A DNA stretch of 64,000 nt from Eledone cirrhosa (Eukaryota). The notes beneath the pieces are model-generated. The model ran no database searches. It had not been told where the DNA came from and worked only from the letters and a program-made list of their open reading frames with translations. Shown piece by piece: positions 2,727 through 64,000 of this stretch (position 1 is its first letter; each line of letters begins with the position of its first letter). Location: NCBI GenBank assembly GCA_964016885.1, contig OZ024744.1:89900001-89964000 (forward strand). Direction: 5' to 3'. Position numbers and translations under genes: made by a program.

Positions 2727-3536
2727 TGTATATGTATATATATATATATATATATATACTAGCAGAAGTGCCCGGCGTTGCTCGGGGCTGAATTGCTTGA
2801 AAGTACTGTTAATGATTGCACTGAATTATGATTATTCAGGCAAAGATTGATATAAGTTTACGCCGAATGAATCTATTTGTAAGTGTATAGAAAGCCCTGT
2901 AAAGGGGTTCTTACCCCCTCGTAGAATGGTGTAAGAATTGAATGTGAGGTTGCCTTGAAAAGGGCCATGTTATTGTTCTCATAATTGTAAGAATTTGATA
3001 GTCGTGGAAGGGGGTGTAAAACGTTCGCAGATGAATAGGGCCTCTTCGTTTTCCACGAACGGCAGGGGAATTAAGTATGGGTAAGTAAATACGGGTAATT
3101 TATAAAATCTAGAACAATAGCATCTACTCATCATATGTCAGACCGGCAAGACTGTAGTGGTGCTGAATAGATGAATCACAACACGTCTGTGGTGGAGATG
3201 TTTTCATTGATCGGCGTTATGAGTAAATTTGTTGTTGTATAAAATGATCTGTTGCTTAGTTTTGAAAGTGTATGTTGCGATCGTGTTGTCGCTGATGTAA
3301 AGTTTAATAGTGAGAGTGTAGATGTAGAGGTAGATGTCTCATGTACGTTGGATATAGAAGATGAGGCTGCTGGTTTGATGACGAATGGATGGAAATAGAG
3401 GTGAACGGAGGACAGGTGTTGGTTAAGTGTGAAGTAATTCCAGGAAACGCCTAAAAATGTAAATGCCATCATAAAAGGGAGTCGTATGTAAGTGAAATAC
3501 TAACGTGTTGTTCCAAAATGATGAAGCGTAGTAATC

Positions 3537-6500
3537 CTATAAAACCTCCTTGTACACAATGTTTTTCGTTTTTCGTTGTGGAACGAACGCGAAAGCATCA
3601 CTGTTGCTGCCAACACGCGAGCAGCCAACGTAAAGCTGACCATGAGAGAAACATGGCTCCCCCAAATGTATTCCCGTCACAGACAGTGTTTGACCCTGCG
3701 CTTTGTTAATTGACATAGCGAAACATGGCCTTACTGGGAACTGGGACCTCCGAAATGTGAAAGGTAGGTCTGCTCCTGATGGGAAAAGATGCATCCTCGG
3801 TATGAGCACAACCTTGCTCCGACCGCACCCTGTGATTATCGTGGCCTCAATCAGATTGGGAGATAAGGACTTAACGATCAAACGTGTGCCATTGCATTGT
3901 TTCGGGGGAACCAAATTTCTAATGAGCATTATAGGGGCACCAACTTTAAGTTTGAGAATGTGTGGTGGTAGTCCGGGGGGGTTCAAAGGAATTGAGTACC
4001 TCTATTGGATAGTTGATGATGTCCTCTGGGTCAGGAGTTGTATCGATAGACTTATATACATAGCCATCCCCAGGAATGAGTTTTAGTATTTGATCATTAA
4101 TATTGTGAACAGTTTTATTCCTCGGGGCCAGAATAGCCCTTTGGCCAATCCAATCCATATTCTGATAATTAGCTTGTAGATCTGGGAACACTGCATCTGT
4201 GAGATCAGAAGGCGTATTAATAATGGTACAAATGGAATCGATGGCAATATTACCATTTTCATCCCCAGTTATTTTGCCTTCGCTAAGTGCAAGGAGGGTG
4301 TGAGAAAATGCTGCTGATGTGATATCACGTCGCATATGAGCACGCATGTTAGTGTTAAGTTTGAGAGTGTTCACCAGTGGCCACAATGTGGATGACTTAA
4401 GACACGCACTTACTGCATCAGCTCTAGTCCCCTTGGGAATAACGGGAAGTGTTTGCCGGAAGTCCCCTGAAAGAAGAAGTGTTATGCCTCCCATGGGAGC
4501 TCTAGAGTGTTTGATGTCTCTGAGAGATCTATCTAGTGCCTCAAGAGCACCTCTGTGGGCCATCGTGCATTCATCCCAAACGATAAGCTTGCATCGTCTG
4601 AATACTTCTGCCTGATCGGAGCTGTTACTGTTGTTGCAAGTTGGTGTCTCAGTCTTCGCTAAGTCAAGCGGGAGCTTGAAAGTGGAGTGAGCTGTCCTGC
4701 CGCCTGGCAACAAAGTAGCCGCAATTCCAGATGATGCCACAGCTAGGGCAATGCCTTGTGTTCGCCTAATCTCAGTCAATATTAATTTGTTGACAAAAGT
4801 TTTCCCAGTGCCCCCAGGAGCGTCCAGGAAAAAAATCCCCCCAGCTTTGGCTCGGACTGAATTAACAACGGAGTTGTAAGCGAACTTCTGTTCTGGAAGT
4901 AGCTTTGGCTCATTCTCGGCTATGTACTGTGCAAGCTCGTCAACATTAAAACATGTCTCACGCAGCAATTCTGAAGACAGTGTTTGTGCGTTCCCGGTTT
5001 GTTGAAGGTAGGCCATATACCGCCAAGGCACTACCGCCCATATCAAGTACAGTATATTCGATTTCAAGCAGCGCCCTGTTGTAAATGAGGTCACTGTACC
5101 CGACCTCCATTGATGGATGTAGCCATTGAGCGTGACGCAGGAAATCTTCAGACATATAATCTTTGTAGGTAAGCCATAAAGAGGCGGGATCAGCCAAGTC
5201 ACACCATAGGAGTAGAATAGCGAAAAGCGATCTGATTTTTTTAGGAGATTTTAACGAAACACCCTCCGCCATAGTGGTGCCCCATTGTGAATCATCCTCC
5301 AAAAGGCCACGCCTAAAGCAGGCTTCCCGGAAAGTATCACATAATTCACCGTCAACAGTTATGATGTCTTGAAAACTGTGTGGGCCTAAAACCTCATGGA
5401 GTAGAAGGCGCAGGTGAAAACACTCATGCTGGTTGGGAGGTACAGTGTACACACTTCCTAGACAACTGTCAAACTTGACACCAGGATGTCCTTCAACATC
5501 CTGACCTGACTTCCTACGCACCCAATTGTTGTTTGACCACACATAGTAGGACGGGACCTGAGGGTATAAAAGTGTTTTGGCAAATGTGTCAATTTGGCAA
5601 AGCCTAAAGAAACAGGTCAAAGTTGTTTGTTTTGGATTTGCCGCCAATTGAGCAGCAGTCTGTTCAGTAAAGTAAGCTCGCTGGCCATTTTCCAAATGAA
5701 CCGCTAGTTGTATGATGGCGGGGTGCCTTTGGTGAAGCGGAAACCCGAATATCCGCCAAAAAGCTTCACCACTGCTTATGTATCAACCTGCCAAGTACTC
5801 CGACACCTCGTCCATGCTATTGTCGTTTTGAAGGCCGAACATAGCAGCGTCAGAACCCTTGTTAACATATTTACATATATACTTTATAGACTTCACTGTA
5901 TGACTGAACTCCACATTTATGTGAGCGTTAAAAGTTTTCATCAGAAATGGACAGTACGGGACTACCCACCTATTATCCACTTGATGACCCCGTAACGTCA
6001 TAGTGAATCCACCATTGTCAGGCTGCCTTCGTCTGTACAGTGGGTATCCGTCGCGGCCGGTCTGGGTCTCCTGCACGAACCTCTTTGGGTATCGTTTAGT
6101 GCACAGATGGTCTTTGTGGCATGAGGAGAACTTTTGAAAACCGGGACCGCACGGACCGTGCACCATGTGTGCCTTGACAATGTCGTACAGCTGCCGGTCA
6201 ACAGTTGGGTCCGGGATTTCTGCTGCGGTGATGTCATCAAGAACTGTCGGGTCTATTTTGTTGACCAACCAAAGCAAAATGTGCGCGTGTGGCAACCCTC
6301 TTTTCTGCCACTCAACAGTATACATGTGGCACTTAACAGGCCCAAAAACCTGCCCTTTTTTTTATTAAATCAATGAGCTTAGCGAGCTTCTGCCTGAAAA
6401 CCCTTGCAATAATATCATGGCGATGGCATTACTGCTGCCCTGGGAGAAGTTCTCGCGTTACCTCAACCCACTTTGGGTTACATGTAAACGTGATGAATAA

Positions 6501-8258
6501 ATCGGGTCGCCCATAATGCCGAACGTAAGTCATAGCGTCTTGTGTTCGCTCGTGCATGTACCGTGGACCCCCTGTATAGGTTGAGGGGAGAATGCACATC
6601 TTGCCGATGTTGCGGGCGTCAGCGTCATTCCTGATGCCGTCACGCAAATGGATGTAGGAGTCTGAGCGCAGCTGCTTCTGATTCAATTTGATGAAGCACA
6701 GTCTCTCGGACTCCATCTTTGCAGCCATGTCAACTGCAAACTGGTGAAACAGTTCCCGTGACCTGTGCAGGGGGCTAAAATCGTTAGGCCTCGTCATGAA
6801 GCGGTATGAGTAGAAAGCCATACATGAAACAGTTTTAGATGTCGCAGCAGTGGGATCGTTTGGTTTGTGGTGAGGAATGCCGACATGGTACCCGTCTTCT
6901 CCGTACGGAAAAAGAAGGGGATACTGCAGGGCGTCGTATGAACGATGCGTCTCATTAATACGTTGAAGACCACTGTCACGGCTTTGAAGAACTATGTCTC
7001 GCTTATTGTGCTGTCCACCATGGAGAACTATGGCTACTTCAGGAGCGTTATATCGGCGTGCGTGCTCCCCAGAAGGTCTTTTGTCAGCATCGATGACAAT
7101 GGTGAAGTTTGGTGAAGGGGCTGTTTCCAAGGCGTATTTGAAACTGTGAATGTAGCTGTTGTGCTCATGAAGCATGTTTTGCAGACTGAGCAGCACGACC
7201 CTGTCAAAATTGTCAGCGTCGGTGTTTGCAGGTGGTGGAATAACGCCGAAACGTACATCAATTTGCGTATTGTAGTTTGAAATGAAGTAAATTTGAAGGA
7301 ACGAAGGTTTGGAATTTTGTAGTGGCTGGAGTGACCCAATGAGGTGGTACACCTGGCCCTGGACCTTGAAAGTAGGCATCCAACCAGTTTCTCTGACAAC
7401 GTTAGCCCCGAAAGAAGTCATCTGAAATGCACGATTGTACTTCCTGATGAGTTGAAGGAATTTTGATGACCTTGAGGTCGAACCAGTAAGTAATTCCTTC
7501 AAAGGGTCTGGCAGCTCCCGAAGAGGGGGCAAGCTGACCTTACCGTTTAAGCAGCACATTGCAGGTGGTTCCCCAGCCCACTTTTTAGCATTGCAGAATT
7601 TGCAATTGAAGCACATTTCCCCAATTTTTATGTCGGTGCGCATCGAGTAATTGAAGTTGGGCTCATACTTGAAAGCCCATAGATGCCAGTAAGGGCTGTG
7701 TGGACTCGTCAGACCGCGGGTAGCCTCGCGCCGTCGACTGTTCCGCTGGAATGTAGAACGTTGCTGGTCTGAGTCGTGGGAAGGTGTCGCATCAGTAGCA
7801 GAAGCGACGTTTGCAATGGTAATGGACCGGCCTTCTGCATCTTGAGAAGGCATGGAAGCAGTGAAAGCCGCCTTGTCCCTATGAAGGTGAGTGGTCGGTA
7901 GTTCGAAACGTTCCGAAAATCTTGAAGCAGTAGTAACCGCAGCGTTTTTAGCCAGTCGAGTGGCCCTTTGTTGTGGGCCCTCTGAAGCCCTTGAAGCAGC
8001 AGCAGCCTTTATAGCCATGCGATTCGACCTTGTTTCTGGACGCTCTGAAGCCCTGGAAGCAGCATCGTATGAAGCCTTTTTTGCTCGGCGTGCGTTGCGC
8101 TGTTGGAAAGTTTCAGCAGCTCGTGATTCCGCTGAACGTAAGGCGCTCTGTGACAGTCTGAAATCCTTTTTGTCGGAGGACTCGTTTGCGGTAATCGCCT
8201 TTTGCACGGCTGCTGCTGCCGTATGGCGGCCGAGGCGACTTCTCTTTTTCGGTGGCAT
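3537..8258 (-). pseudogene. Helitron Rep/PIF1-family helicase (RepHel), split into about 5 ORFs by stops and frameshifts
   Basis: Zn finger CKFCNAKKW..CCLNGKV. Rep motifs PDLFITFTCNPKW, VEWQKRGLPHAHILLW (HUH) and KYICKYVNKG. Helicase motifs [38 protein letters not shown] and [13 protein letters not shown]. Confidence 0.93.
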
Positions 8259-8586
8259 TTTATGTGAAAAATAAAGGGTGAAAGTTACTTAAAGATAGAA
8301 ATTGTAATGTGAATGAAATGTGGAAAAATTTTGACCGTGGAAGGAAAAGAAACAAATATTTGGAGCTGAAAGAAATTGTTTAGGTAAGTATAGCGACAGA
8401 GTGTGTAAAGTGTATTGAAACGTGAGTTAAAAGAAAAAAAATGAAGTGAAATTTGTAAGAAAGGAAGTTGTTTACGTACATGTGAAAATATTTGTGTAAA
8501 GTGTATAGAAACGTAAATTGAAACAAATAAAATGAACTGACATTTTTAAGAAAGGAATTTTTTTATGTACATGTTGCAAATGGCAA

Positions 8587-11725: not shown

Positions 11726-12249
11726 CCCGGAAGAAGTTGATTAGTAACTAATCAAGTTCAGATTTTGGAAAACATCCTGCCATTATACTCATCAAAGGTC
11801 ATTTATTGAAATGGAACCAGCAGGAGGGCACTTTTACGACCCCTTTCTAAAACATTCCTTAAAACCCCAACACTTCCCAACTCTACTTCTAATCAATTAT
11901 CTTGCTGTCACCATTCACTATTTTATGTATATATATATGCTTTAATCCCTTTAAATCTTCAACATTCCTCCACTCCCACACTCAACAACCCACCCCCACC
12001 CCAGACACACCCAAATCTCTCTTATATAGAGAGTCACACATCACAACACAACCTGAGGTCAGTTTGACAATCGCTACCGACGAATGCGAGAAAGTTATGC
12101 AGAAAAGTTAACCAGGAATTTTTAACGATCTCCCAACCGAAGTTAACAAAGAACTTACTAGATCTACAAAACCAAATTATAAAATTAAAGTATAAAATTA
12201 AATTAAATTGTTTAGAACTACAAGTGAAGTCATTATTTTCGTGTCACAA

Positions 12250-12690
12250 TCATGGAAAGCATATGTTAGCAAGGCAGCAAAGAAGATGGAGAGCAGGAAT
12301 ATCACCTTTCTTTACCCTGTTGACAATTGAGATTTCCCCAGATAGTTGACCATTGAAGGTAACCCAAGCTTTCATATTTCTGTGCAGCTGCTTTAGCATA
12401 CTCACAAACTTGGGTGGACATCCCACTTTTCCAAGTATTATCCAGAGTGCATCTCTGTTAACTGTGTCAAAGGCCTTCTTTAGGTCGACAAAGACTTGAT
12501 ATAGAGGGTCACACTGCTCAATGCATTTTTCTTGTATTTGTCTTACAGAGAGAATCATGTCAACTGTTCTCCTTCCTCTTCTAAAGCTATTCTGAGATTC
12601 TGGGATAGCTATAGGATAGATATCCTCCTCCAATCTGTTGAGCAATAGTCTTGCAAGAACCTTCCCAGCAGCTTCCAACAGAGTGATGCC
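12250..12690 (-). mobile_element. RTE-clade LINE reverse transcriptase fragment
   Basis: PESQNSFRRGRRTVDMI..RQIQEKCIEQ..FVDLKKAFDTVNRDALW..GCPPKF. Confidence 0.85.
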
Positions 12691-12698
12691 ACATACAT

Positions 12699-13207
12699 GA
12701 TGGCTGACCCCTCGTTATCGAGTATGGCCATTGCATGATATAACATTATTAATAATTATCAATTAATGCTATCGTGCAATGCCTGTACGAGAAGATTTTT
12801 TTTAAAGTGAGGAAAGACTGTGCACTGAGCCAATCCCACTCTCTGAGTGACAGTAGCTATAACCCGAAAAGAAGAAAAGATCTACATCATCGGTAACCGC
12901 AGGTTTTATGTCGGAGTTGTCCCCGTTTCCTGAGTTGCCTTATGGTTTAACCAAGCGATCAGGTATCCAACCCGATTAGTTCTAAGTCCCCGCGCATATA
13001 TACACATATGTATACATCTATATACATATATACATACACACATATATACACATGCATACACATTTTTGGATGGCCGTTGACTCTTATGAGTTCTTCCGCC
13101 CTTTGTCAGGTTTTGCTTTTTGTCCTGCAGGGTGTCCAAAATCACCCTCCTCACCAAGTAAACTTGGTGGGGTTGCCGGTTTAGTCGCCGACGACCCGAT
13201 CATGTCA
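12699..13207 (-). mobile_element. RTE-derived non-autonomous element, divergent subfamily, split by a CA/TA repeat
   Basis: Minus-strand 3' end GGCCATACTCGATAACGAGGGGTCAGCCATC-(ATGT). 13065-13207 matches the 5' part of 14078-14678. Confidence 0.55.
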
Positions 13208-13277
13208 CATACATACATACACGCATACATACATACATACATACATACATACATACATACATACATACATACATACA

Positions 13278-13305
<28 letters not shown>

Positions 13306-13308
<3 letters not shown>

Positions 13309-14062
13309 GACATCACACCTTGAGGGATATCTCTATGCAATACAGGAACAAGAACTCCCTACCAAATATCTGCTGCACAAAAGAGGAGGGCCAGCAGCTG
13401 ACAATAAATGTAGGCTATGTAAAACAAAGATCGAGGATGTAAGCCACATTGTTGCCAGCTGCGAAAGAATGTCATCTCGCTACTACCTCCCCATGAGACA
13501 CGATGGGATAGCTAGAACTATCTGGAACGCACTTCGGAAAACAAAATTAACAACAAACGAGGAAGAATATATTGAGACAGATGGCACTAAGGAATACTGG
13601 TGGAACCTGAAAATAAAAACTGCCACCAAATTAAAGCACAACCGGCCTGATATTGTAGTTTGGGACCACACATTGAAAACGTGTTCTGTTGTGGAGATCA
13701 GCTGCCCACTTGATGTAAACGTTGTCAGAAAAATACAGGAGAAGGAGGACATCTACGGACCATTGATGAGGAGTTTACAAATCCAGTATCCAAGATACAC
13801 CTTTAGCTTCATACCCATCATTATTGGTGCTACGGGTTATATACCAACCCGCTTGGACCAAAGTATGACTGAACTTGGATTTGCGGACAAAAAGCGCAGC
13901 TCCCTAATTCATAGTCTACAAATGGGTGCGATAGCTGGCACCTTCAAAATTTGCAAAACATTCTTGCGATTCAAGGGATGACAATTTCTTTTCTTTTACA
14001 ACCTTGCCACCAGGAAGGTGGCCGGTCAAAAAAATATACTCGAAATTAAGAGAAAGAGAAAA
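13306..14062 (+). mobile_element. 5'-truncated copy of R4/Dong-like element A in (CATA)n
   Basis: Nearly identical to 20441-21197; CCHC knuckle, RHD and RPD..E RLE motifs; (CATA)n on both sides. Confidence 0.93.
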
Positions 14063-14077
14063 CATACATACATACAT

Positions 14078-14678
14078 GGTGGCTGCAAACTCGTTTTCGA
14101 GTACGGCCACTACTTTATATCCATGTAGGAGAACCCCTACCGATGCGCTGAACAAGTGTGACTTTTTAGTCCAGCCAGCAACTTGAAAACTGGTACAAAT
14201 ACTACACTTGTGACAATTATTGACACTTAGTGCTGGGCCCATGGTACCATGTGACGACAAGTGCAGAGAGATCTCCATATACAAAGCAATGCCTGTGCCC
14301 TGAAGCTTTTATAGTGAACAAAGGCACTGCACAAAGCCAGTCCCAACTCTTAACCAAAACGATATTTACCAAAAAGAAGAACAAGTCAACATCATTGGAT
14401 ACCATCAGGGTTGCAGGTATTATATCAGAGTTTTCCTTCTAGAATTCTGCCTTGACAAAGACTAAGGGGTCATCTCTCCCGGTGATTTTGGATGGCCATT
14501 GACTCTTAAGAGCGCTTTTGCCCTTTGACAGGTTTTGTTTTTAGTCCTGCAGGATGTCCAAAGTCACCCTCCTCAACAAGAAAACTTGGTGGGGTTACCA
14601 GTTTAGTCGCTAACGACCCGACCATGGGACAGGTTGTACTGGGATACATGTTACCAGTAGCACCAACTGGTGACCTGA
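14078..14678 (-). mobile_element. ~600-bp non-coding RTE-derived (bipartite) element with (TATG)n tail, copy 1
   Basis: The minus strand contains CTAGAAGGAAAACTCTGATATAATACC, resembling the RTE 5'-UTR motif. It ends GGCCGTACTCGAAAACGAGTTTGCAGCCACC-(ATGT)n. A second full copy is at 15093-15698. Confidence 0.7.
14598..14675 (-). ncRNA. Candidate HDV-like ribozyme at the element 5' end (also 15619-15695)
   Basis: The order P1 GGTCA / P2 CCAGT / L3 ACCTGTC / P1' TGGTC / GG / P4 GTCG-TTAG-CGA / J4-2 CTAA / P2' ACTGG fits the nested double pseudoknot. P3 is imperfect in both copies. Confidence 0.45.
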
Positions 14679-14773
14679 CATACGTACATACATACATACA
14701 TACATACATACATACATACATACATACATACATACATACATACATACATACATACATACATACATACATACAT

Positions 14774-14959
14774 GATGGCTGCAAACTCTCCTAAGAGTAC
14801 TGCAATCGCTTGTCAGATTACAGAAACTGAACAAGCAATGCCTGTGCTTTTAAGGTGAAGTGGGGAAAGGCCTTGCACTCGACCAATCGCACTCTCTGAA
14901 CATCGAAAACACTACCCGAAAAGGAGAACTGGTCAACATCATCGGATGCTTCCGAAGCG
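14774..14959 (-). mobile_element. 5'-truncated divergent RTE-derived element
   Basis: Same (CATA)n-GATGGCTGCAAACTC end; shares the aagcaatgcctgtgc and gtcaacatcat motifs with 14078-14678. Confidence 0.6.
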
Positions 14960-15092
14960 TACATACATACATACATACATACATACATACATACATACAT
15001 ACATACATACATACGTACATACATACATACATACATACATACATACATACATACATACATACATACATACATACATACATACATACATACAT

Positions 15093-15698
15093 GGTGGCTG
15101 CCAACTCGTTTTCGAGTACGGCCACTACTTTATATCCGTGTAGGAGAACCCCTACCGATGCGTTGAACGAGTGTGACTTTTTAGTTCAGCCAGCGACTTG
15201 AAAACTCTGGTACAAACACTACACTTGTGACAATTATTGACACATAGTGCTGGGCCCATGGTACCATGTGATGACAAGTGCAGAGAGATCTCCAGATATA
15301 AAGCAATGCCTGTGCCGTGAAGCTTTTATAGTGAGCAAAGGCACTGCACAAAGCCAGTCACACTGCCTTAACCAAGATTATATTTACCAAAAAGAAGAAC
15401 AAGTCAACATCATTGGATACCATCAGGGTTGCAGGTGTTATATCAGAGTTTTCCTTCTCCTAGAATTCTGCCTTGACAAAGGCTAAGGGGTCATCTCTCC
15501 CGGTGATTTTGGATGGCCATTGATTCTTAAGAGCTCCTTTTCCCTTTGACAGATTTTGTTTTTAGTCCTGCAGGATGTCCAAAGTCACCCTCCTCAACAA
15601 GAAAACTTGGTGGGGTTGCCAGTTTAGTCGCTAACGACCCGACCATGAGACAGGTTGAACTGGGATACATGTTACCAGTAGCACCAACGGTGACCTGA
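15093..15698 (-). mobile_element. ~600-bp RTE-derived element, copy 2
   Basis: Colinear with 14078-14678, with the same 5' (TCAGGTCACC) and 3' ends and (CATA)n on both sides. Confidence 0.7.
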
Positions 15699-15768
15699 TA
15701 TACATACATACATACATACATACATACATACATACATACATACATACATACATACATACATACATACA

Positions 15769-16759
15769 GAGTGAGAGTAATATAGATAAGGATTGTAGTC
15801 TATCTTGGACCAACAACCGCTATATTGGCTCCCACTTTGAAGATACGCTTTTGCAATCCAGGAACAGGAGATTAACACGAAATACCTGATTCACAAAAGA
15901 AATAGGGATGCAGGCAAAACACCTAGATGTGATAACAACTGCATACTCTGCAGAACTAACATCGAGGATATCACCCATGTCATCAGCAGCTGTCCAAAGA
16001 TGTCATCGCGGTACTATCTACCTACGAGGCATGATGTAGTGGCCAAAACAATGTACAATGCAGTTCGTAAAAAAGATAGCCCCGATAATAAACACATTAA
16101 AAGCTACAGCAATATGGAAGACATCAAGGTACATAATATGAAAGAGTACTGGTGGAATGTTCCAGTAAAAACCCCAATAAAATGCAGGCATAACAGACCA
16201 GATATTATGATATGGGACAGGGAGAAGAAAGCACACACAGTAGTGGAAATTAACTGCCCAGCAGATGCCAATATAATATCAAAGATTAGTGAAAAGGAGA
16301 ATATTTATGCAGAACTGATGAAAAATCTGCAGATACTCCACCCTGATTACACCTTCAGATTTATGCCTGTGATTATTGGGGCACTGGGATATGTTAGTAA
16401 CTGCCTCAATACAAATCTTGAGAAGCTAGGCTTCACAGGAACAGAAATAACACAACTAGTTAGGAAATTACAAGTACAATCCATTAATGGAACAGTAAAA
16501 ATATGTAAAACATTCCAAAAATGTTGCATCTAATAACTGCATATACACATGTACAGATACAAAGCATATACATATGCACACATACAACTCAAAACATACA
16601 GATCCACACATACAATAACATCCATATCTACACATACATACATACATATCTACCTAGTTGATGTTGTGTAAATTCCAATGAGAGAGTTTTGTGTCTGTGT
16701 TAGAGACCGACTCTCTCTCTCTATTGGTAAAATGTTGTGAAATTATAAAACCAGAAGAA
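15769..16759 (+). mobile_element. 5'-truncated R4/Dong-like element of a second family (C) in (CATA)n
   Basis: [50 protein letters not shown]: homologous to element A but clearly diverged. Ends CCAGAAGAA|CATAC. Confidence 0.9.
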
Positions 16760-16969
16760 CATACATACATACATACATACATACATACATACATACATAC
16801 ATACATACATACATACATACATACATACATACATACATACATACATACATACATACACACACACATACATACACACGTACATACATACATACATACATAC
16901 ATACATACATACATACATACATACATACATACATACATACATACATACATACATACATACATACATACA

Positions 16970-19900
16970 ATGGCGACCGTTGTGGTCAGTGTCCGATAAT
17001 TGGACGTGTGTAATTACGGCTTACATGAAGGCAACATACCATATATTGGAAAAAGTTGAGCTACATTACGCGGTAAGATTACATACAATAATTAATTCTA
17101 CATAAGTGTTTGAACTGTAAGTGTGTTGTAAAACACCTATTTATATGAACGATACATACACTTATGATATATGAACGATACATACACTTTAACATATAAA
17201 TGCAACGTTGTTATATTACATTTATAAAGAAATATAAAAGTAACGTTTTCGATTCAGAAACAAAAATATAAGTGTTTGAACTGTGAATGTTGTGAATATG
17301 TTGTAGAACACCTATTTATATGAATGATACATAAACTTTAACATATAAATACAGCGTTGTTATATTATATTACATTCGTAAAGGAATATACTAAGTAACG
17401 GTTCTTTTTGTTCTCGATTCAAACGATTCAAGAACAACGTTTAAAACACAGTTGTAGAATTAAAAACTAACTGAAAAGAAATATTACCCAAGCTGTGAAT
17501 AACTTTAAATTTGATTCTGACAGAACTTTGTCGTAACTTTTAAAGAAGATCATCGACTATTTAAAAAAAATAAATACAAAATATTAGTGAATAGACGAAC
17601 TCATCATGGCAAAAAGTACAAGTCTCCTTCGACCAAATCGCAATTACAACCGTTGTATACAGTGGAGCTACGAGCTTAACAAAGAATTATATGAAGCATA
17701 ACAAACAATCTGAACCCCAAAAGTTCGGTTTTATGCAAAGGCTAAAAACTTTATGGAACTCCAAACACCCAGAATTAGACTTTTCTCCAAAGCATCTAAA
17801 TGAACAGGCAAAACGTATCATTAGATGTAAATTGATACATCTAACGGAATCGAGTGATACTACAAATACAGCCCTTGTAGACAACCACCCCACCTCCACT
17901 GACAGACAAAGAGAATGGCCGGCTAAATCTAACAGTGAACAGCTCACCAACAATTTTGCTGAAATCCATCCCACTTCCACTGAAGAACAGCGAGAAAGGT
18001 CAGCTGACTCTAGTAGTAATTGTCACCACATCAACAACGAGGCTGCAATTCATGACTCTACTGAACAAACAGAGCACCAAAAACTTGTGGGCACCCTACA
18101 AGTGATATGGAACGATATGTTTCAAGAGATACACAGCCTTAATGTGAGTGACAGACCATACAACACTAGAGTCAGTAAAGAACCCACTAAATTGGAATTG
18201 GAAGCGGTGAACGAAATAGCTGGCAATTATCTGAAGGCTATACGATCTAAAGGTGTAGAAACGACATTTGAAACGCTCAATGTTTTGTTATATGTTTCAG
18301 CTGTCACATTGCTATCATATAACACACATCTAAAACCACGCAATCAAGATACAAACAGAAAGCCTGAACCAGCGTGGATGCGAAATTTAAAAACCAAAAT
18401 TTTGTCCCTGAGACGAAGTATCTCACACATCGCAGTCGTTATGAAATGCAACATAGAGAGAAACTTCACACGACACCAGGAAGACCTAAAGAAAAAGTTA
18501 GAGAGACGATTTGGAGATACCAAATTTAAAACTTTGAACTCCAAATTACACCAGTTGAAACAACAACTCACAGCTACAACAGAAAGACTAAAATATAAGT
18601 CAACAGCCCATAAACGACAAGTGCTAAATAGATTGTTTGCCAGAGATCCTAAATCAGTTTATCGCAGCTTCGGTGGCAAAAGCTCAATCCCTGTAAACGA
18701 CACCCCTTCAAAAGAACAGGTTGAGAACTACTGGAGATCTGTATGGGAAACGGATGACGGATTCAACAGACAAGCTAATTGGCTAAAACAACTGGAACAG
18801 GACTACTGCCAACATGTCCAGACAAAACAATATGACATAGATGGGTCAATACTGGAAACAGCTCTACAGAAAATGTCGAATAGGAAATCGCCAGGCCCAG
18901 ACCTCATTACAGGATACTGGTTGAAGAATTTCACTTTCTATCGGCAAGATCTCATACGGCTGTTTACAGAAACCATTAAGGGCACACAAGAACTGCCCAG
19001 ATGGTTATCAACTGCCACTACTCTCCTCATTCCCCAAAATAGCCAAACCACCCTTGCTAAAAATTACCGCCCAATTGCCTGCCAAAACATCATGTATAAA
19101 TTATATACTGGGTGCCTTAACCTGTTCTTACAGGATCACTGTGCTACCAACAACATCATAACACCTGAGCAAGCTGGTGGAAAGAGGGAGGTGTGGGGTT
19201 GCATAGATCACCTACTAACTAACAAAATGATTCAGGAAAAAACAACAAAGAATCGCAGAAACATGACTGTCGTGTGGCTGGACTATCAAAAAGCATTTGA
19301 TAGTGTACCTCATGGGTGGATTATTAAGGCTTTACAGTTAGCTAAAGTCCCACAACCATTAGTAGCTGCTGTTGAACGCCTGACCAAGAACTGGTACACC
19401 AATTTGATCCTTAGAGGTGAGAAGGAGCAGGTTAAGACTGATAGGATACATTACCAGAAGGGCATCTTTCAGGGTGATAGCTTGTCAGTACTACTCTTCG
19501 TTCTCTCACTGAATCCACTATCTTACCTACTCAGGAAACAAGGTGGACAAAGAAGTGGGCCCAGAAGTATCTCCCATCTTTTCTTTGTTGATGACCTGAA
19601 GTTGTATGGGCCAAATATCAATGACATCAAGAAACAATTGGACCTCATTACACAATTTTCAACCGACATCAAAATGAAATTTGGTGAGTCCAAGTGTGCA
19701 TATTTGGCAGTAAAACGTGGAAGAGCTGTGCCCTCCTCTAGAAATCTAGATATGAACGGCCTGACAATACAACCTCTGCAGTCAGGTGACAACTACAGAT
19801 ATCTTGGACAGGATGAGAATGTCAGATATGATGGACCCATAAATAAGGAGAGAACCAGAACTGAATACCTCAGAAGAGTAAAAAAAATATGGTCATCAGA

Positions 19901-21197
19901 ACTGTCAGCATACAACAAATACATTGCCCACAATACCTATGCTGTGCCAATTCTAACGCCAACATTTGGCCTACTGAACTGGTCATTGCAAGAACTAAGT
20001 GAGATGGATGTTAGAACTCGTAAACTTCTCAGTGTTACTGGGAACTTTAACATCAATGGTGATGTGGATAGGCTATACTTCTCACGCAAGGAAGGTGGCC
20101 GGGGTCTAAAATCAATATTAACAACATATGAGACCCGGATAGTAACACTGAAGCAACACCTTCAACAGAGGAAAAAGGTTGGCGACCATCTTGCTCAGGT
20201 TTATGAGCATGAAAAAAGAAATATCATTAGAATAGCGACTGATCTGGAGGAGAGATATGGAATAAAGCCTGATATAAATCTCTCACCCAGAGAAATCGGA
20301 AGATCCTATTCAATGTTCAAACAAGAAAAAAAAATTGACCAATTTACAGAGAAAGTTGTGCATGGATACTTGAGGCGTAAAACACAGACCATAGAGGGGA
20401 TAAACCACTCAAAAAGCCTGGCATGGAGTTCCGACAAGTTTATGACATCACACCTTGAGGGATATCTCTATGCAATACAGGAACAAGAACTCCCTACCAA
20501 ATATCTGCTGCACAAAAGAGGAGGGCCAGCAGCTGACAATAAATGTAGGCTATGTAAAACAAAGATCGAGGATGTAAGCCACATTGTTGCCAGCTGCGAA
20601 AGAATGTCATCTCGCTACTACCTCCCCATGAGACACGATGGGATAGCTAGAACTATCTGGAACGCACTTCGGAAAACAAAATTAACAACAAACGAGGAAG
20701 AATATATTGAGACAGATGGCACTAAGGAATACTGGTGGAACCTGAAAATAAAAACTGCCACCAAATTAAAGCACAACCGGCCTGATATTGTAGTTTGGGA
20801 CCACACATTGAAAACGTGTTCTGTTGTGGAGATCAGCTGCCCACTTGATGTAAACGTTGTCAGAAAAATACAGGAGAAGGAGGACATCTACGGACCATTG
20901 ATGAGGAGCTTACAAATCCAGTATCCAAGATACACCTTTAGCTTCATACCCATCATTATTGGTGCTACGGGTTATATACCAACCCGCTTGGACCAAAGTA
21001 TGACCGAACTTGGATTTGCGGACAAAAAGCGCAGCTCCCTAATTCATAGTCTACAAATGGCTGCGATAGCTGGCACCTTCAAAATATGCAAAACATTCTT
21101 GCGATTCAAGGGATGACAATTTCTTTTCTTTTACAACCTTGCCACCAGGAAGGTGGCCGGTCAAAAAAATATACTCGAAATTAAGAGAAAGAAAAAA
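16970..21197 (+). mobile_element. Apparently full-length R4/Dong-clade non-LTR retrotransposon (element A) in (CATA)n
   Basis: ~640-nt 5' UTR with an internal ~165-bp duplication, a single RT-RLE ORF, a short 3' UTR ending GAAAAAA|CATAC, and (CATA)n on both sides. Confidence 0.9.
17691..21116 (+). CDS. RT + CCHC + restriction-like endonuclease polyprotein (1141 aa; true start probably ATG 17606 with a 1-nt insertion near 17700)
   Basis: KSPGPD, YRPIAC, DYQKAFDSVPH, GIFQGDSLS, FVDDLK, YRYLG, GGRGL, CRLC..HIVASC, RHD and RPDIV..EISCP. Confidence 0.92.
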   Translation: MKHNKQSEPQKFGFMQRLKTLWNSKHPELDFSPKHLNEQAKRIIRCKLIHLTESSDTTNTALVDNHPTSTDRQREWPAKSNSEQLTNNFAEIHPTSTEEQRERSADSSSNCHHINNEAAIHDSTEQTEHQKLVGTLQVIWNDMFQEIHSLNVSDRPYNTRVSKEPTKLELEAVNEIAGNYLKAIRSKGVETTFETLNVLLYVSAVTLLSYNTHLKPRNQDTNRKPEPAWMRNLKTKILSLRRSISHIAVVMKCNIERNFTRHQEDLKKKLERRFGDTKFKTLNSKLHQLKQQLTATTERLKYKSTAHKRQVLNRLFARDPKSVYRSFGGKSSIPVNDTPSKEQVENYWRSVWETDDGFNRQANWLKQLEQDYCQHVQTKQYDIDGSILETALQKMSNRKSPGPDLITGYWLKNFTFYRQDLIRLFTETIKGTQELPRWLSTATTLLIPQNSQTTLAKNYRPIACQNIMYKLYTGCLNLFLQDHCATNNIITPEQAGGKREVWGCIDHLLTNKMIQEKTTKNRRNMTVVWLDYQKAFDSVPHGWIIKALQLAKVPQPLVAAVERLTKNWYTNLILRGEKEQVKTDRIHYQKGIFQGDSLSVLLFVLSLNPLSYLLRKQGGQRSGPRSISHLFFVDDLKLYGPNINDIKKQLDLITQFSTDIKMKFGESKCAYLAVKRGRAVPSSRNLDMNGLTIQPLQSGDNYRYLGQDENVRYDGPINKERTRTEYLRRVKKIWSSELSAYNKYIAHNTYAVPILTPTFGLLNWSLQELSEMDVRTRKLLSVTGNFNINGDVDRLYFSRKEGGRGLKSILTTYETRIVTLKQHLQQRKKVGDHLAQVYEHEKRNIIRIATDLEERYGIKPDINLSPREIGRSYSMFKQEKKIDQFTEKVVHGYLRRKTQTIEGINHSKSLAWSSDKFMTSHLEGYLYAIQEQELPTKYLLHKRGGPAADNKCRLCKTKIEDVSHIVASCERMSSRYYLPMRHDGIARTIWNALRKTKLTTNEEEYIETDGTKEYWWNLKIKTATKLKHNRPDIVVWDHTLKTCSVVEISCPLDVNVVRKIQEKEDIYGPLMRSLQIQYPRYTFSFIPIIIGATGYIPTRLDQSMTELGFADKKRSSLIHSLQMAAIAGTFKICKTFLRFKG

Positions 21198-21275
21198 CAT
21201 ACATACATACATACATACATACATACATACATACATACATACATACATACATACATACATACATACATACATACA

Positions 21276-21625
21276 TGATGGCAACCCCACTGTGATCGTG
21301 AATGGCTATCAATCAACGACATCAGCTTGGGTCGTGTGGGCACAACAAATAGATATGGCTTTTTAGGCCTGCTAATCACTTCCAATGTTTTCCGATTAGA
21401 TCACCTTTTAAGACTTCGGTCATCTATTTTACATCATTCAAAGATCCTATGATATCGAATGGTGCATGTGCGTGGAGTTTTTTTATTTTGAGGAAATACC
21501 TTTCACTGGACCAAGCCCACTCACTGAATAACAATAGATATAATCCGAAAGTGACATCAGAGTTTCCCTCTCCTAGAGAGATAACCTATCGAGGATCAGG
21601 TTATCTCACTTCCAGTCAGCTTACC
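21276..21625 (-). mobile_element. Divergent RTE-derived element
   Basis: (CATA)n-GATGGC end; minus-strand CTAGGAGAGGGAAACTCTGA motif at ~21557-21576. Confidence 0.5.
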
Positions 21626-22107
21626 GCACTCTCAGACACCAGCCTGTGTATTTCTATGTCGCTGCGTGTATATATATATATATATATATATATGATATTA
21701 AATAAATGGAAACTATATTTATAAAACCATATTTATTTCGTTATATATATTTCAGGGATATCATATTAACAATATGTTATGCCATCTTCAGACAAAATAC
21801 AATATAAACAGTCTTATAAATAAATAGATACGACATACCTTTCAATCACCTTGCATTTGGGAGGTTGATTTGTCAGTAAAAAATATTGTGGACAGTTGTA
21901 AAAAGAAAGAGATAAAGAGACAAAGAAAGAGAAACGAAGAAAAAGAAGAAATGCATGTGACTAAATAGAGGGATATAGAAAGATAGATAAAGAGAAGAAC
22001 TTCATGTAAAGAAACAGAGAGAAATATATATAGAGAGAGGAAAAAAAAAGAAAGAGATAGATAGAGATAGATAGAGAAATTAGGAAGTTGAGTATCGGTT
22101 GATACAT

Positions 22108-22444: not shown

Positions 22445-22665
22445 TATATATATATATATATATGTTTGTGCGCGCGCGTGTGTGTGCGTGTATCTGTGTG
22501 TCTGCGCACACTCAGACACCAGCCTGTGTATTTCTATGTCGCTGCGTGTATTTATATATGCTTGCTTGCGCGCGCGCGTGTGTGTGTGTGTGTGTATTTG
22601 TGTGTCTGCGCACACTCAGACACCAGCCTGTGTATTTCTATGTCTCTGCGTGTATATATATATGT
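22445..22665. repeat. ~115-bp tandem duplication with a partial third copy at ~21627-21680
   Basis: ctcagacaccagcctgtgtatttctatgtc occurs three times. Confidence 0.75.
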
Positions 22666-23045: not shown

Positions 23046-26000
23046 ACAGCCCCGGCGGTCAGAATGGAGAAGGCGTTTCCCCGGAGGACAGCAATGGAGA
23101 CGCGCTGGAAAAACCACTCCAACTCGCGGGGCTCACACCTGCGGCTGGCCAGCTCAGCGCCTATGGTGGTCAGTAGGGAGGTAGCCCTAGGGCCAAGGAC
23201 ACCAGAAGTCTCCACTGCCAGGGGTACGACCGCAAACCTGTCGGAGAGCGACCGGTATTTGAGGAGTTTGGCCCCCTCAGCCCGACGTGCAGCAGAACCC
23301 GGGTTAATCGCAGACTGCACCAGGTTGCGCCTGCAGAAAGTGTCGGTGCAAGTGGCATCCCAGACGAGGGGTTTTCCACCGCGGAACGGGAAGATGGTCA
23401 GGCCTTTTGCCGTCCCCTCGGTCCAGCGCCACCGGCTTGAGCTGGGAAGAGAAGCCTGCAGCGCCCAAGCCATGCTTTATCACATTGTTGAGAGCAGCAT
23501 GGCGTGGAAGGCAGCTGGCACTGTGGCGACAGGAAAGCGGGTGGAGGCCGAAAGGGTCCACGGTGGATCCGCAGCGACATTGGTGTGGCTCGCAGATCCG
23601 GAGGCCGAGCCTCAAGGAAACGCCAATGCGCAGGCTATTATTGTCTAGCTGCGTGCCAGTGGAGAAGGAGGGCAGGGCATGGAGCCTGGCACCACTGTGG
23701 GGTTTGGAGGCCGCACGAAAACAGGCAAGGCGATGCTGGTCGATCTGGTGCGTGAGCCTGTCTGAGGCCAGGCTGGACTGGATGGCATGCCAAGTGCTTT
23801 GGGGAGACTTGGCGTCAACAGGGGGAGAAGGAGGAGGGACGTCTACTGGGCTGAGTCCCAGCCGGTCCCACGTCTGACAGGAGGCCTCACGTTCTCTGAA
23901 CACAGAGGGTTCTATTGTGTTTAGAAGAACCCTGCTGACGAGCACGCGACACGAGGTTACCGACGAAAGATACGTCGGCAAAGCCAGTGAGCTCGAGGAC
24001 CGGAGGCCAAGGCCACCATACCTGACAAGTAAAGTGGCTTGTTGCCAGCCAATGTCGTCAAACTTGACGTTGTATATCTCCTCGGCTGCTTCTCGGATAT
24101 AAGTATCGAGGTCAGCGAGGAGAGATGTGTGGGTGTAGCACGGAGCGCTGCGAAGGGTATAGGGGAGCTTCGGCATGGCGAAGCAGTTCCTCAACAGAAA
24201 GAGGGCTGGGTGGCCGTCGATCAAGTCCAGTCGGCTTGTGAGAGTCTGGAGTTGTTGAAGCCTGGACCTGATGGTGGAGCGGATGGCCGGCGGGTGGATC
24301 GGTGACCTGAGGATGAGGACATCCTCTGTGGGGATCACCTGTACCTGGTGGAGAATGGACCCCACGCCTGAGACGGAGGCTGCAAAGCTCTCAGGATCGT
24401 GGCTGACATTCACTATCTCCGACTTAGCCGAGTTGACCTGGAGGCCGATTCCTGCCAGGGCAGGAACCATCGAGTGTAGGTCATAGCAGACAGTCTGTAC
24501 GGGCCCGCCCAACGTAGCATCATCCAGGTACCAAACATTGAGAGGGGCCGTGATACTCCGGGCGATGTGGTCTATACCAAGGGCAAACAGGAGGAGTCCA
24601 AAAGGGTCGCCCTGTTGGACCCCAGTGACCGAAGGTATGACCGTATCAGCAGCAAGGAGCATGCTCGGGGCTCCATACGACAGATAGGCCAGCGAGTAGG
24701 CAGAGGGGGCTCGGCTGAGGCAGGCATCGAGCAGATGGTCCCAGCGTAAGCAGTTGAAGGCATTCCTCATGTCAAGCCTGACAATGAGGTGCCTGGAGTC
24801 CCTTGATGCTGGTTCCTGTGGGCAGCTGTTGAAGAACTGCCTGGTTGCATGTGCGGCCCCCTCACAGCCACCGGACACGCCGATACCCAGTTGCACCGGA
24901 TTGAACTCCTCACCCAGTTCGGGTGTTATGAACCTGCAGACCACCTTGGCAGCCAGCTTCCGGAAGATATTGCCCACGGTGATGGGGCATATGCCACCCT
25001 CTTTCTTCCTGAGAGCGGTGAGGCTAGCCGAAAAAAAAGAGGCAGCAGGCGTGAGGGTCTAGGGTGCCATGGATGAGCCTATGGGTGAGCGCCACAATTG
25101 CACCCAGAAGGCGGTGCCCGGCCTCAGCGGAGAGGGGGAATATGAGCTCCTTCAGGTGGCCTCGTCGGAGATCATCAACACCTCCGCTGCTGCTAGCTGG
25201 GAAGGACTTGATGGCGGACATGCTGTCTGCATCAGAAGCCACAAGGAGCAAGTGGGGTCGGGTGGGGGTATGGGTCTGAGATCAGCGGGTGGCTCAGGGT
25301 GCTTAAGTCGCAGAGCAGCCAGGACCTCCTCGGTGGGTTGGAGGACAGTGTCCTCTGAGGCAACCACTCTGACTGCGGCCGAGACATCACCCATGATTAA
25401 TTTAGCATTTACGCGGTCGCGCAAATGCTTAGTGCTGGCCTCATGGGTGGAGGGTTGGGGGTACCCGAGGGTTGGGTGTGTGGCATCCCTGGGCACGCTT
25501 GGAATGGGTGCTTGCCAAAAAGGACGAAAAATTGGCCTTAACGAAGGCTGTTGTTGACCGGCCAGAGCTGGGGAGGCCGAGGGAGAGTGGGACGAAATAA
25601 TAGAGTCGCTCTCACTCGATGGCTCGATTAGAGTCCAGGGCGCTCTCAATCAAGGAGGCGAGGGCATCGGCTACCGGCACCCGAGCCCTCTAGGGATCTT
25701 GAGTGGGATCTTCCGGAGCCGCCTGAGCCGAGCGACGTTGACTAGCGAGGCGCGGGCGTCAGACAAGCTCGCTGTCGCATCTGGTGGTGTGCTAGACGGC
25801 CATGGCTGGGCAGACGAGGGAAAGAGGCAGTTCCTGCATCTCTACGCTGCGAGGGGACTAGAGGCTCGACGTATCAAGCCAACACAGGTGAGGTGGTGGA
25901 AGCAGCCGCACCTCGAACAGTTCCGGCCCCTCTTCCGTCTGTTAGTGGTGCTGCAAGTGCTGCAGGTGTCGGCTTGAAGAGATGGGATGGGGCGAGGGGG

Positions 26001-60597: not shown

Positions 60598-61012
60598 GGG
60601 CAGTGGATTGGCGTCAGTAGAGCGTCGGACAATATGCGGCATAGAGTTGTGGTCCTTTACATTCTGAGTTCAAATCCCGCCGAGGTTAGCTTTGCTTTTC
60701 ATCCTTACGGGGTCAATAAAAAATAAAGTACCAGCAATGCACTTGGGTAATTGCTGGCCTTGTTCCAAATGTAGAAACAATTATTCTGTTAGCGGTGGAT
60801 TGGCAGTATCGGTAGAGGGTCAGACGTCAGACTTTGCAGCATAGAGTTACGGCCCTTTACAGTTTGAGTTCAAATCCCGCCGAGGTTAAACTTAGCCTTT
60901 CATCCTTACAGGGGTCAATAAAATAAAGTACCAGTAATACACTGGGTCGATTCGGTCGACTTTCTCCTCCCCTTCAAATTGCTGGCCTTGTGCCTAAAGT
61001 AGAAACAATTAT
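60598..61012 (+). mobile_element. Two tandem SINE copies
   Basis: Heads at ~60600 and ~60792. Confidence 0.85.
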
Positions 61013-61996
61013 TTGAAGAGTTCTTCAGCGCGTTGTTGTGGCTGTTCTTGTTGTTGCTGCTATGGTGGTTGTCGCTGTTGTTCTTTGATGTTGTTGTCGT
61101 TGTTGTTCCTATTGTTTTTGATGTTGATGTTGTTGTTGGTGGTGGTGGTGGTCGTGGTTTGTGGTGGTGATGGTGGTGATGGTAGTAGTGGTGGGGTGGG
61201 GGAGATGGTAGTAGTGGTGGGGTGGGGGAGATGGTGGTGGTGGTGGTAGTGGTAGTGGTGGTGGTGGGGTGGGGGGTTATGGTGTGGGGTGGGTGTTGGG
61301 ATTGATAGTAGTGGTGATGGTGGTGGTGGTAGTGGTGGTGGCGGTTGTGGTGTGTTTGTGTGTGTGTGTGTGGGGGGGGGGGGGGGGTTATTGTTCTTGA
61401 TGTTATTTTTGTTTTTGCTGTTGTTATTGTTGTAATTGTTGCTGTTGCTGTGGTGATTGTTGTGATTGTTATTTGTGTATTGTTGTTGTTGTTCTGTGTG
61501 TTGTTTTTGTGGATCTTGTTGTTGTTGTGGTGGTGGCTGTTGGTGCTGTTGTTGGTGGTGTTCTGTGTTGTTGTTGTGGATCTTATGGTTGTTGTTGTTG
61601 TTTTTTGTTTTTGTTTTGTTTTTTGTTGTTTTTGTTGTTCTGTGTGTTGTTTTGTTGTTGTGGATCCTGTTGTTTTTGTTGCATCCCTTTGAACTAAGTC
61701 AGCAGCTGAGCCCTTGCCTATGTGTTCTATCGAGATCAGAGTTGGATTTAGACCTGCAGGGTTTTTTTTTGTGGCGGGGGGGGGGGGGGTCATATTTGGC
61801 GGGCCCTTCATACACAAAGAATTAGAATACACAGCAAATCTCCCCGGCCCCGCCAATTTTACATATCAAAGTTATCTTTGCGCAAGTAATTCGAATTGAG
61901 AAATTATACATAGAGTTATTAAACTCAAAGATTCTAACCATCCTAAAACTAATAGGCCCAGCTGTAGGTACAAGTAAATTGCTACGGCTGTCGCCT

Positions 61997-63945: not shown

Positions 63946-64000
63946 GACAAACACTGGCGGTTTCATTTGTCAGATGACATCCTCTGGTCTACCGACACAT

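What the first reader, a model, noticed from the sequence alone, without database searches (positions are those of the whole stretch)
12699..21625. A (CATA)n nest shared by two unrelated retroelement classes on opposite strands
Seen: about 9 kb alternates (CATA)n arrays with three R4/Dong-like insertions (all plus) and five RTE-derived insertions (all minus, (TATG)n-tailed). Known: Dong/Rex6 target (TAA)n, and RTE elements end in short tandem repeats. Inference: RTE tails create or extend the microsatellite that the RLE elements then target, and each insertion leaves new target. This would be a self-feeding two-partner system.
Basis: partly seen in the sequence, partly recalled or inferred. 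Interest (0 to 1): 0.75.

Follow-up and report, generated by a model that had tools for sequence, protein, structure and literature searches.

The report
Two retroelements share one CATA microsatellite
Two unrelated kinds of jumping gene pile up in the same CATA repeat, almost always facing opposite ways, at thousands of places in this animal genome, most likely because each inserts into that repeat on its own rather than because one builds the repeat for the other.

Summary
In detail: three R4/Dong-like LINE copies (+) and five RTE-derived elements (−) alternate with (CATA)n arrays. Strand polarity is genome-wide and nearly absolute: family A 1,225 junctions on the CATA strand, 0 on the other; RTE-derived ends 6,991 versus 3. 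The 'RTE tails make the target' reading is not supported. The tails are mostly target DNA: 4,825 RTE-derived ends abut (TA)n instead; all 18 full-length copies with a CATA tail side also have CATA on their 5' side; flank type is not clustered on their tree. R4 copies do not need an RTE neighbour: 25 of 50 have none on either side, and an RTE 3' end lies across the array in 27 of 90 R4 loci versus 9 of 39 background arrays (p=0.52). Best reading: two independent tenants of one microsatellite; each insertion splits an array into two targets, so nests grow. Such nests occur in 4 of 120 evenly spaced 10-kb samples. What is new: a Dong-like lineage on (CATA)n instead of (TAA)n, and a microsatellite-seeking RTE. 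The scan noted both before, on two other pieces of this genome.

The parts
12242..12692 (-). Old RTE reverse-transcriptase fragment at the left edge of the nest; its upstream part was not found on the far side, so it is likely a 5'-truncated copy, not a split host
   Evidence: Pfam RVT_1 E 9e-12; 58% aa to RTE family R, the only RTE-level tblastn hit in the window; about 87% to nearest fetched relatives
12699..13206 (-). B1, bipartite RTE derivative (5' UTR piece plus 3' stem-loop); only ACATACAT (12691-12698) at its 3' end
   Evidence: 86% over 215 nt to the R 5' UTR and 97% over the last 37 nt of R; about 89% to nearest relatives
13207..13307 (+). (CATA)n array, about 25 units
13308..14061 (+). 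Family A R4/Dong-like LINE, 5'-truncated
   Evidence: 99.3% to A 3473-4226
14062..14077 (+). (CATA)n array, 4 units
14078..14677 (-). B2, full-length copy of the B4 family
   Evidence: 94% to B4
14678..14773 (+). (CATA)n array, about 24 units
14774..14960 (-). B3, 5'-truncated RTE derivative of an older subfamily
   Evidence: 75% over 89 nt to the R 5' UTR, related 3' stem-loop; about 87% to nearest relatives
14961..15092 (+). (CATA)n array, about 33 units
15093..15699 (-). B4, full-length 607-nt bipartite RTE derivative: 5' UTR block, remnant of the last C2H2 finger of the RTE ORF, 3' stem-loop; at least 21,071 exact 3'-end matches in the genome
15700..15768 (+). (CATA)n array, about 17 units
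15769..16758 (+). Family C R4/Dong-like LINE, 5'-truncated (CCHC plus nuclease part, 3' UTR); at least 4,576 exact 3'-end matches
16759..16969 (+). (CATA)n array, about 53 units, interrupted
16971..21196 (+). Family A R4/Dong-like LINE, full length; ATG at 17607, reading frame shifted near codon 31 in this copy, then open to 21116; at least 1,849 exact 3'-end matches
   Evidence: the copy in L017 reads through this stretch in one frame
21197..21276 (+). (CATA)n array, 20 units
21277..21668 (-). B5, diverged RTE derivative; 5' side abuts (TA)14 at 21669-21698
   Evidence: 76% over 90 nt to the R 5' UTR; nhmmer hit 21668-21558 to the R 5' UTR block; no close relative among fetched loci

Best explanation
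Two unrelated retroelement lineages sit in the same (CATA)n·(TATG)n microsatellite on opposite strands throughout this genome, likely because each inserts into existing arrays independently. Families A and C (single ORF, restriction-like nuclease) read along the CATA strand and would nick the TATG strand to prime reverse transcription (orientation shown, nick inferred). A young autonomous RTE (family R) and its short bipartite derivatives (B) read along the TATG strand, insert after an AT in (TA)n, (CATA)n or mixed arrays, and would be primed on the CATA strand by a short match to their 3' end (flanks shown; priming, and mobilisation of B by R, inferred from the shared 3' stem-loop). Every insertion leaves array on both sides, turning one target into two, and B adds a 12-24 nt duplication; the arrays would then keep attracting both lineages and build nests like this one. 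The feedback is real but needs no partner and no tail-made target.
For: Polarity: A 1,225 vs 0; B-type 6,991 vs 3; 46 vs 0 opposite/same-strand adjacencies in 90 R4 loci. B flank varies with site: 4,825 ends after pure (TA)n; in 75 copies not chosen through R4 loci the tail side is CATA 25, TA 31, mixed 5, none 14. All 18 of 48 full-length B4 copies with a CATA tail side have CATA on the 5' side as well. Flank type needs 20 changes on a 54-copy tree vs 17.7 for shuffles. R copies also end in mixed TA/TATG/TG tracts (14 of 19 with the 3' motif matched). R4 independence: 25 of 50 without a B/R neighbour vs 22 of 39 background arrays, p=0.67; 27 of 90 vs 9 of 39 for a B/R 3' end across the downstream array, p=0.52. 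A and C are 50% identical in protein and both use CATA, which suggests the target is older than B1 and B4 (inference); in L164 a C-like copy at 84% neighbours a B4 at 95%.
Against: Per array, B ends are about 25 times more common at CATA than at TA arrays (7% vs 0.3%), which fits preference or creation. 17 of 39 background CATA arrays touch a B/R element (16 by the script). For A alone, the least favourable counting gives 23 of 60 vs 7 of 39, p=0.04; the corrected counting gives 21 of 60 vs 9 of 39, p=0.27. In this nest the RTE-derived copies are older than A, and both outer edges are RTE-derived elements without a long CATA array beyond them. B4 has more CATA on its 5' side than its tail side (19 vs 6, p=0.015), which co-tenancy does not explain. 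The B4 tree is star-like (1 of 51 branches starred), so that test is weak. The background sample is small (39 arrays), and some loci are not independent (L098/L099 duplicates; L116/L117 and L223-L226 share nests; L001, L031, L061 are the window itself).
Confidence: 0.75

Rival explanations
1. RTE-lineage elements are net suppliers of the R4 target, but through their 5' end, their target duplications and the repeats in their own UTRs rather than a 3' tail: full-length B starts with one TATG unit, which in a (TA)n array could expand by slippage into (CATA)n that A/C then use.
For: Full-length B4 is followed on the CATA strand by CATA in 28 of 35 unselected copies tallied, also in TA arrays and unique DNA. 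More CATA on the 5' side than the tail side: 19 vs 6 unselected, 28 vs 8 all, after skipping that first unit. TA-tail/CATA-5' 11 vs CATA-tail/TA-5' 2 among 125. R's 3' UTR carries (TATG)3-4. Duplications of 12-24 nt in 7 of 48.
Against: The same asymmetry arises if the RTE enzyme prefers (TATG)n upstream of its nick in compound arrays. 16 of 39 background arrays touch no known element on my manual reading (17 by script). Half of the R4 copies have no B/R neighbour.
Confidence: 0.15
2. One reading: RTE 3' tails lay down (TATG)n de novo, and R4 elements target those tails.
For: 17 of 39 background arrays touch B/R; 21 of 60 A copies face a B/R 3' end across the array; B5 has CATA on its tail side and TA on its 5' side; seeding by LINE tails is described in snakes (PMC8303610, passages).
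Against: 0 of 18 full-length CATA-tail copies lack a 5' array (upper 95% bound 15%); 4,825 ends carry pure TA instead; no CATA-tail sub-lineage; the asymmetry runs the other way. Twelve truncated copies scored CATA-tail/no-5'-array: of the 7 printed, 6 have CATA units at or within about 35 nt of the alignment end and in 1 the element continues after an internal gap; 5 were not inspected.
Confidence: 0.07
3. The nest is a local tandem duplication or assembly artefact rather than a series of insertions.
For: A1 and the full A are 99.3% identical; arrays can recombine, and L030 holds tandem B4 copies, three of them cut at the same point.
Against: A1 is as close to unlinked copies (99.5%) as to its neighbour; B2 and B4 differ by 6%, no closer than unlinked pairs (median 96%); seven of the eight elements have distinct lengths or subfamilies; similar nests occur in 4 of 120 samples. 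Reads were not examined.
Confidence: 0.03

Closest known systems
Dong (R4 clade; Bombyx Dong, DongAg, snail DongBg, ostracod Dong)
   Same: Single ORF with RT and C-terminal restriction-like nuclease, a diverged Myb-like N-terminus without zinc fingers, insertion into a microsatellite (PMC7998251 and PMC3812793, passages).
   Different: Target is (CATA)n, not the (TAA)n reported for most insects, molluscs and cnidarians (PMC7998251). No named Dong sequence was compared.
Waldo (R1 clade; WaldoAg1, WaldoAg2, WaldoFs1)
   Same: Targets ACAY microsatellites, which include this repeat (PMC3812793, passage).
   Different: AP-endonuclease elements of insects; A and C have a restriction-like nuclease. 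Same target reached by another enzyme class.
Bipartite RTE derivatives (Bov-A, RTE-N2_Lch, AfroSINE bodies)
   Same: 5' UTR piece joined to the extreme 3' end of an RTE, ending at a microsatellite (PMC5786205, passages); 3' microsatellite linked to choice of site and priming (PMC6007223, passages).
   Different: Those have a fixed repeat tail and a weak site signature; here the flank follows the site (TA, CATA or mixed) and most copies lie inside arrays with fixed polarity.
Microsatellite seeding by LINE 3' ends (CR1-L3 in colubroid snakes)
   Same: LINEs enriched next to one microsatellite class (PMC8303610, passages).
   Different: The two-sided flank test points to insertion into arrays, not seeding from the tail.
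Active Dong-R4 and RTE families of Octopus vulgaris
   Same: Both clades are abundant and recently active in octopus: 1,129 Dong-R4 and 182 RTE recent insertions (PMC13282606, first third of the text plus passages; PMC8967140, passages).
   Different: The main text of PMC13282606 holds neither 'target' nor 'nested'; its supplement was not read. Whether these are the same families was not tested.

Membership tests
R4/Dong clade | Single ORF with central RT | tested here: met
   RVT_1 at 483-730 of a 1,173-aa open frame; the first 30 codons lie in another frame in this copy, in frame in L017
R4/Dong clade | C-terminal CCHC knuckle and PD-(D/E)xK restriction-like nuclease; no AP endonuclease | tested here: met
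   Cys/His motif and NRPD..E..K conserved across 12 aligned proteins; no Exo_endo_phos hit. Motif names are recalled.
R4/Dong clade | N-terminus with a diverged SANT/Myb-like domain and no zinc fingers | tested here: inconclusive
   No N-terminal Cys/His finger; a W..E....W...P..L..Q...I block aligns with insect homologues; no Pfam Myb hit; no profile-profile search run
R4/Dong clade | RT phylogeny with named R4, Dong, Rex6 | not tested
   No named reference turned up. Indirect: 34% over the whole RT-nuclease region to Bombyx and Pediculus proteins (E 1e-123 to 1e-132) versus E 1e-28 to R2 structures (different databases)
Dong proper | (TAA)n target | tested here: not met
   First 100 listed 3' junctions of A and of C run into CATA-type repeats, read by eye
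RTE clade (family R) | Single ORF, AP endonuclease plus RT, short 3' terminal repeat | tested here: met
   Exo_endo_phos and RVT_1 in a 1,207-aa frame; 3' ends abut AT/ATG-type repeats. Clade name rests on this layout and on recall; no tree with named RTEs
Bipartite RTE derivative (B) | 5' UTR part plus 3' end of an RTE, no tRNA head needed | tested here: met
   B1, B4, B3, B5 match the R 5' UTR; B1 and B4 match R's last 30-37 nt; B4 keeps a C2H2 remnant. No tRNA scan was run; Rfam showed no tRNA hit on L031
Bipartite RTE derivative (B) | Mobilised in trans by the RTE protein | not testable with these tools
   Inferred from the shared 3' stem-loop and shared target type; A/C share only microsatellite-like stretches with B/R
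Microsatellite-seeding LINE | Array present on the 3' side only and inherited with the element | tested here: not met
   0 of 18; no clustering on the tree; tested for B4 only

The most novel reading that the evidence does not exclude
A microsatellite-seeking RTE lineage converts the genome's abundant (TA)n tracts into (CATA)n by planting a TATG unit at its 5' junction and duplicating 12-24 nt at each insertion, and so manufactures the niche of a site-specific R4 lineage working on the other strand: niche construction between two retrotransposon clades, at some ten thousand nests.
Probability: 0.15. Interest if true: 0.65.

Novelty: new variant of a known kind. Interest (0 to 1): 0.35.

Why it matters
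It gives a new target, (CATA)n, for a Dong-like lineage with two active families and thousands of copies. Waldo reaches the same repeat with a different nuclease, so the pair could show how a restriction-like nuclease element changes its microsatellite target. It also shows an RTE lineage with near-absolute polarity inside microsatellites, in a clade described as having weak site preference. For octopod genomics, (CATA)n arrays act as insertion sinks: roughly 10,000 mixed nests (range 2,700-25,000 from 4 of 120 samples), which matters for repeat annotation and for microsatellite markers. The two-partner feeding loop, the striking claim, is not shown.

Tried and rejected
Heritable CATA-tail sub-lineage of B4: no signal, on a poorly resolved tree (54 of 125 copies used: long, >=92% identical, flank CATA or TA). 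Target-site duplication of A/C: undetermined; two interrupted candidates of 28 and 33 nt (L022, L120), but several copies cap it at 10-20 nt. Longer array upstream than downstream of A/C, as R2-like binding would predict: 42 vs 32 of 44 with >=5 units (Wilcoxon p=0.02, sign test p=0.32), but the 8 of 52 dropped for unclear junctions all had 0-2 upstream units, so inconclusive. B1 inserted into an intact RTE host: the host's upstream part is not on the far side. Ribozyme in A or B 5' regions: no Rfam ribozyme hit; RNAalifold on 14 partly misaligned copies gave only weak hairpins. Named R4/Dong references: none found; PMC4400214 is not held. A third background batch could not be fetched, so the background is 1.2 Mb. 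No reads, structure prediction or cross-species target check were run. The search of earlier findings by sequence returned nothing.

Full report
Setting. The window lies in a 3.0-Gb animal assembly. The closest named homologue of the main ORF is an Argonauta hians protein at 67% identity, so the genome is likely an octopod (inference).

Observation. There are 9 perfect runs of at least four units, none in 200 shuffles and none in the other 55 kb of the window. The plus-strand elements are a full-length A (16971-21196), a truncated A (99.3% identical) and a truncated C (50% aa to A). A encodes RT, a CCHC knuckle and a PD..E nuclease and shows no AP endonuclease; its best solved relatives are R2 proteins at E 1e-28. 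This is the R4/Dong layout described in PMC7998251 (passages); I had no named R4 or Dong sequence to place it with. The window copy is frameshifted near codon 31.

The minus-strand elements are RTE-derived. A search with the RT fragment at 12242-12692 found a young autonomous family, R: AP endonuclease, RT and C2H2 fingers, 99.0% median identity over 121 pairs of copies. B1, B3, B4 and B5 match its 5' UTR, B1 and B4 match its last 30-37 nt, B4 keeps a remnant of the last finger, and most fold a similar 3' stem-loop. They are bipartite derivatives of the kind described in PMC5786205 (passages). B5 extends to about 21668 and abuts (TA)14.

Genome-wide counts (exact patterns, lower bounds). A 3' end: 1,849 with a non-G base 46 nt on; 1,225 directly followed by two CATA units; 0 followed by the opposite-strand repeat. 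C 3' end: 4,576. By eye, the first 100 listed for each run into CATA-type repeats, a few with only one unit, and none starts with a TATG array. B4 3' end: 21,071. B-type 3' ends after pure CATA: 6,991; after pure TA: 4,825; after the opposite-strand repeat: 3. In 90 A/C loci, 46 adjacencies to B/R were opposite-strand and none same-strand; 36 A/C-to-A/C adjacencies were all same-strand. The strand rule is therefore real, but it follows from each family's own orientation to the repeat.

Do RTE tails make the array? Among 125 distinct B4 copies, the 75 not chosen through R4 or RTE loci have CATA on the tail side in 25, TA in 31, mixed in 5, none in 14. Among 48 full-length copies, all 18 with a CATA tail side have CATA on the 5' side too; 10 others have CATA only on the 5' side. 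Twelve truncated copies scored tail-only; the 7 printed are explained by alignment ends, degenerate units or an internal gap, and 5 were not inspected. Flank type is not clustered on a tree of 54 copies (20 changes vs 17.7 shuffled; star-like, weak). R copies end in varied TA/TATG/TG tracts. Seven of 48 show interrupted duplications of 12-24 nt (chance matches are possible in repeats). So the 'tail' is mostly target, and B extends rather than creates arrays. This fits the priming role proposed for RTE 3' repeats in PMC6007223 (passages). Against this reading: B ends are about 25-fold denser at CATA than TA arrays, and the 5' side is richer in CATA than the tail side (19 vs 6, p=0.015; 28 vs 8, p=0.001), which I cannot explain and which keeps 5'-end seeding open.

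Does R4 depend on RTE neighbours? A B/R 3' end lies directly across the downstream array in 21 of 60 A loci (plus 2 internal hits) and 6 of 30 C loci. In 120 evenly spaced 10-kb samples there are 39 arrays; the script scored 7 with a B/R 3' end downstream, and I raised this to 9 on inspection (a 37-nt B1 stub seen and one hit labelled internal). Fisher tests: 27/90 vs 9/39 p=0.52; 21/60 vs 9/39 p=0.27; least favourable 23/60 vs 7/39 p=0.04. Of 50 A/C copies with both junctions visible (of 90), 25 have no B/R neighbour and 9 no known element at all; background 22 of 39, p=0.67. A modest enrichment is not excluded, a dependence is. Three loci are the window itself and a few share nests.

Order. 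Identity to the nearest fetched relatives: RT fragment and B3 87%, B1 89%, B2 95%, B4 97.6%, C 97.5%, A 99.5-99.9%, B5 none. But A and C diverged far earlier and share the target, and an 84% C-like copy neighbours a 95% B4 in L164.

How common. Four of 120 samples hold both classes on CATA arrays, about 10,000 nests genome-wide (2,700-25,000). This nest is a long example of an ordinary feature of this genome.

Mechanism. Shown: anatomy, polarity, arrays on both sides, variable B flanks, R4 copies without RTE neighbours. Inferred: which strand each enzyme nicks, priming by a short AT match, mobilisation of B by R, and growth of nests because each insertion doubles the targets.

Literature. Dong on (TAA)n and Waldo on ACAY: PMC3812793 (passages). 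RLE elements on microsatellites, Togen on (TG)n: PMC4640811 (passages). Active Dong-R4 and RTE in octopus with no word on targets: PMC13282606 (first third and passages), PMC8967140 (passages). Seeding in snakes: PMC8303610 (passages). Nine searches listed no paper whose title or passages describe a (CATA)n-targeting R4 element or shared nests; subscription papers, Repbase and all supplements were not seen and may bear on this. Two earlier unreviewed notes of this scan on other pieces of the same genome reached the same co-tenant reading; I had committed to it before looking.

Verdict. Real, genome-wide, a new variant of known kinds; the self-feeding two-partner claim is not supported in the form given. 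Interest 0.35.

Noticed in passing
L251-L268 (e.g. L257:1641-6230): Young autonomous RTE family R, about 99% identical copies, ORF near 1,180 aa ending in several C2H2 fingers; both UTRs carry (TG)n, (TAT)n, (TA)n and (TATG)3-4 tracts, and a B4 copy sits inside that 3' UTR tract in L256.
   Followed up: partly
window 15431-15510 (-), 21558-21668 (-); R 5' UTR: A 5' UTR block conserved in R, B4 and B5 with a short hairpin whose stem differs between subfamilies; could be a structured RNA, but no Rfam hit.
   Followed up: partly
L030:1818-3297; L161: Tandem B4 copies cut at the same point (three at 404 nt plus a fourth running off the locus in L030; two at 133 nt in L161), suggesting duplication through the flanking arrays.
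   Followed up: no
window 22449-22664: Two tandem 104-nt units, each holding the 5' piece of the B5-type element next to (TA)n.
   Followed up: partly
window 3946-8288 (-): Helitron Rep/PIF1 helicase spread over several reading frames.
   Followed up: no
window 33048-36452 (-): LINE with AP endonuclease, RT and zinc knuckle in one 1,134-aa open frame.
   Followed up: no
window 23304-25058 (-): GC-rich RT-coding frame of 584 aa, another retroelement.
   Followed up: no
L036, L200, L209, L063: Other short repeats that abut (ATC)n·(GAT)n tracts next to TA or CATA arrays, one with the B-type 3' stem-loop.
   Followed up: no
window 61000-64000: Extreme strand skew (GC skew +0.55 then about -0.77, AT skew up to 0.9), probably long simple repeats.
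   Followed up: no
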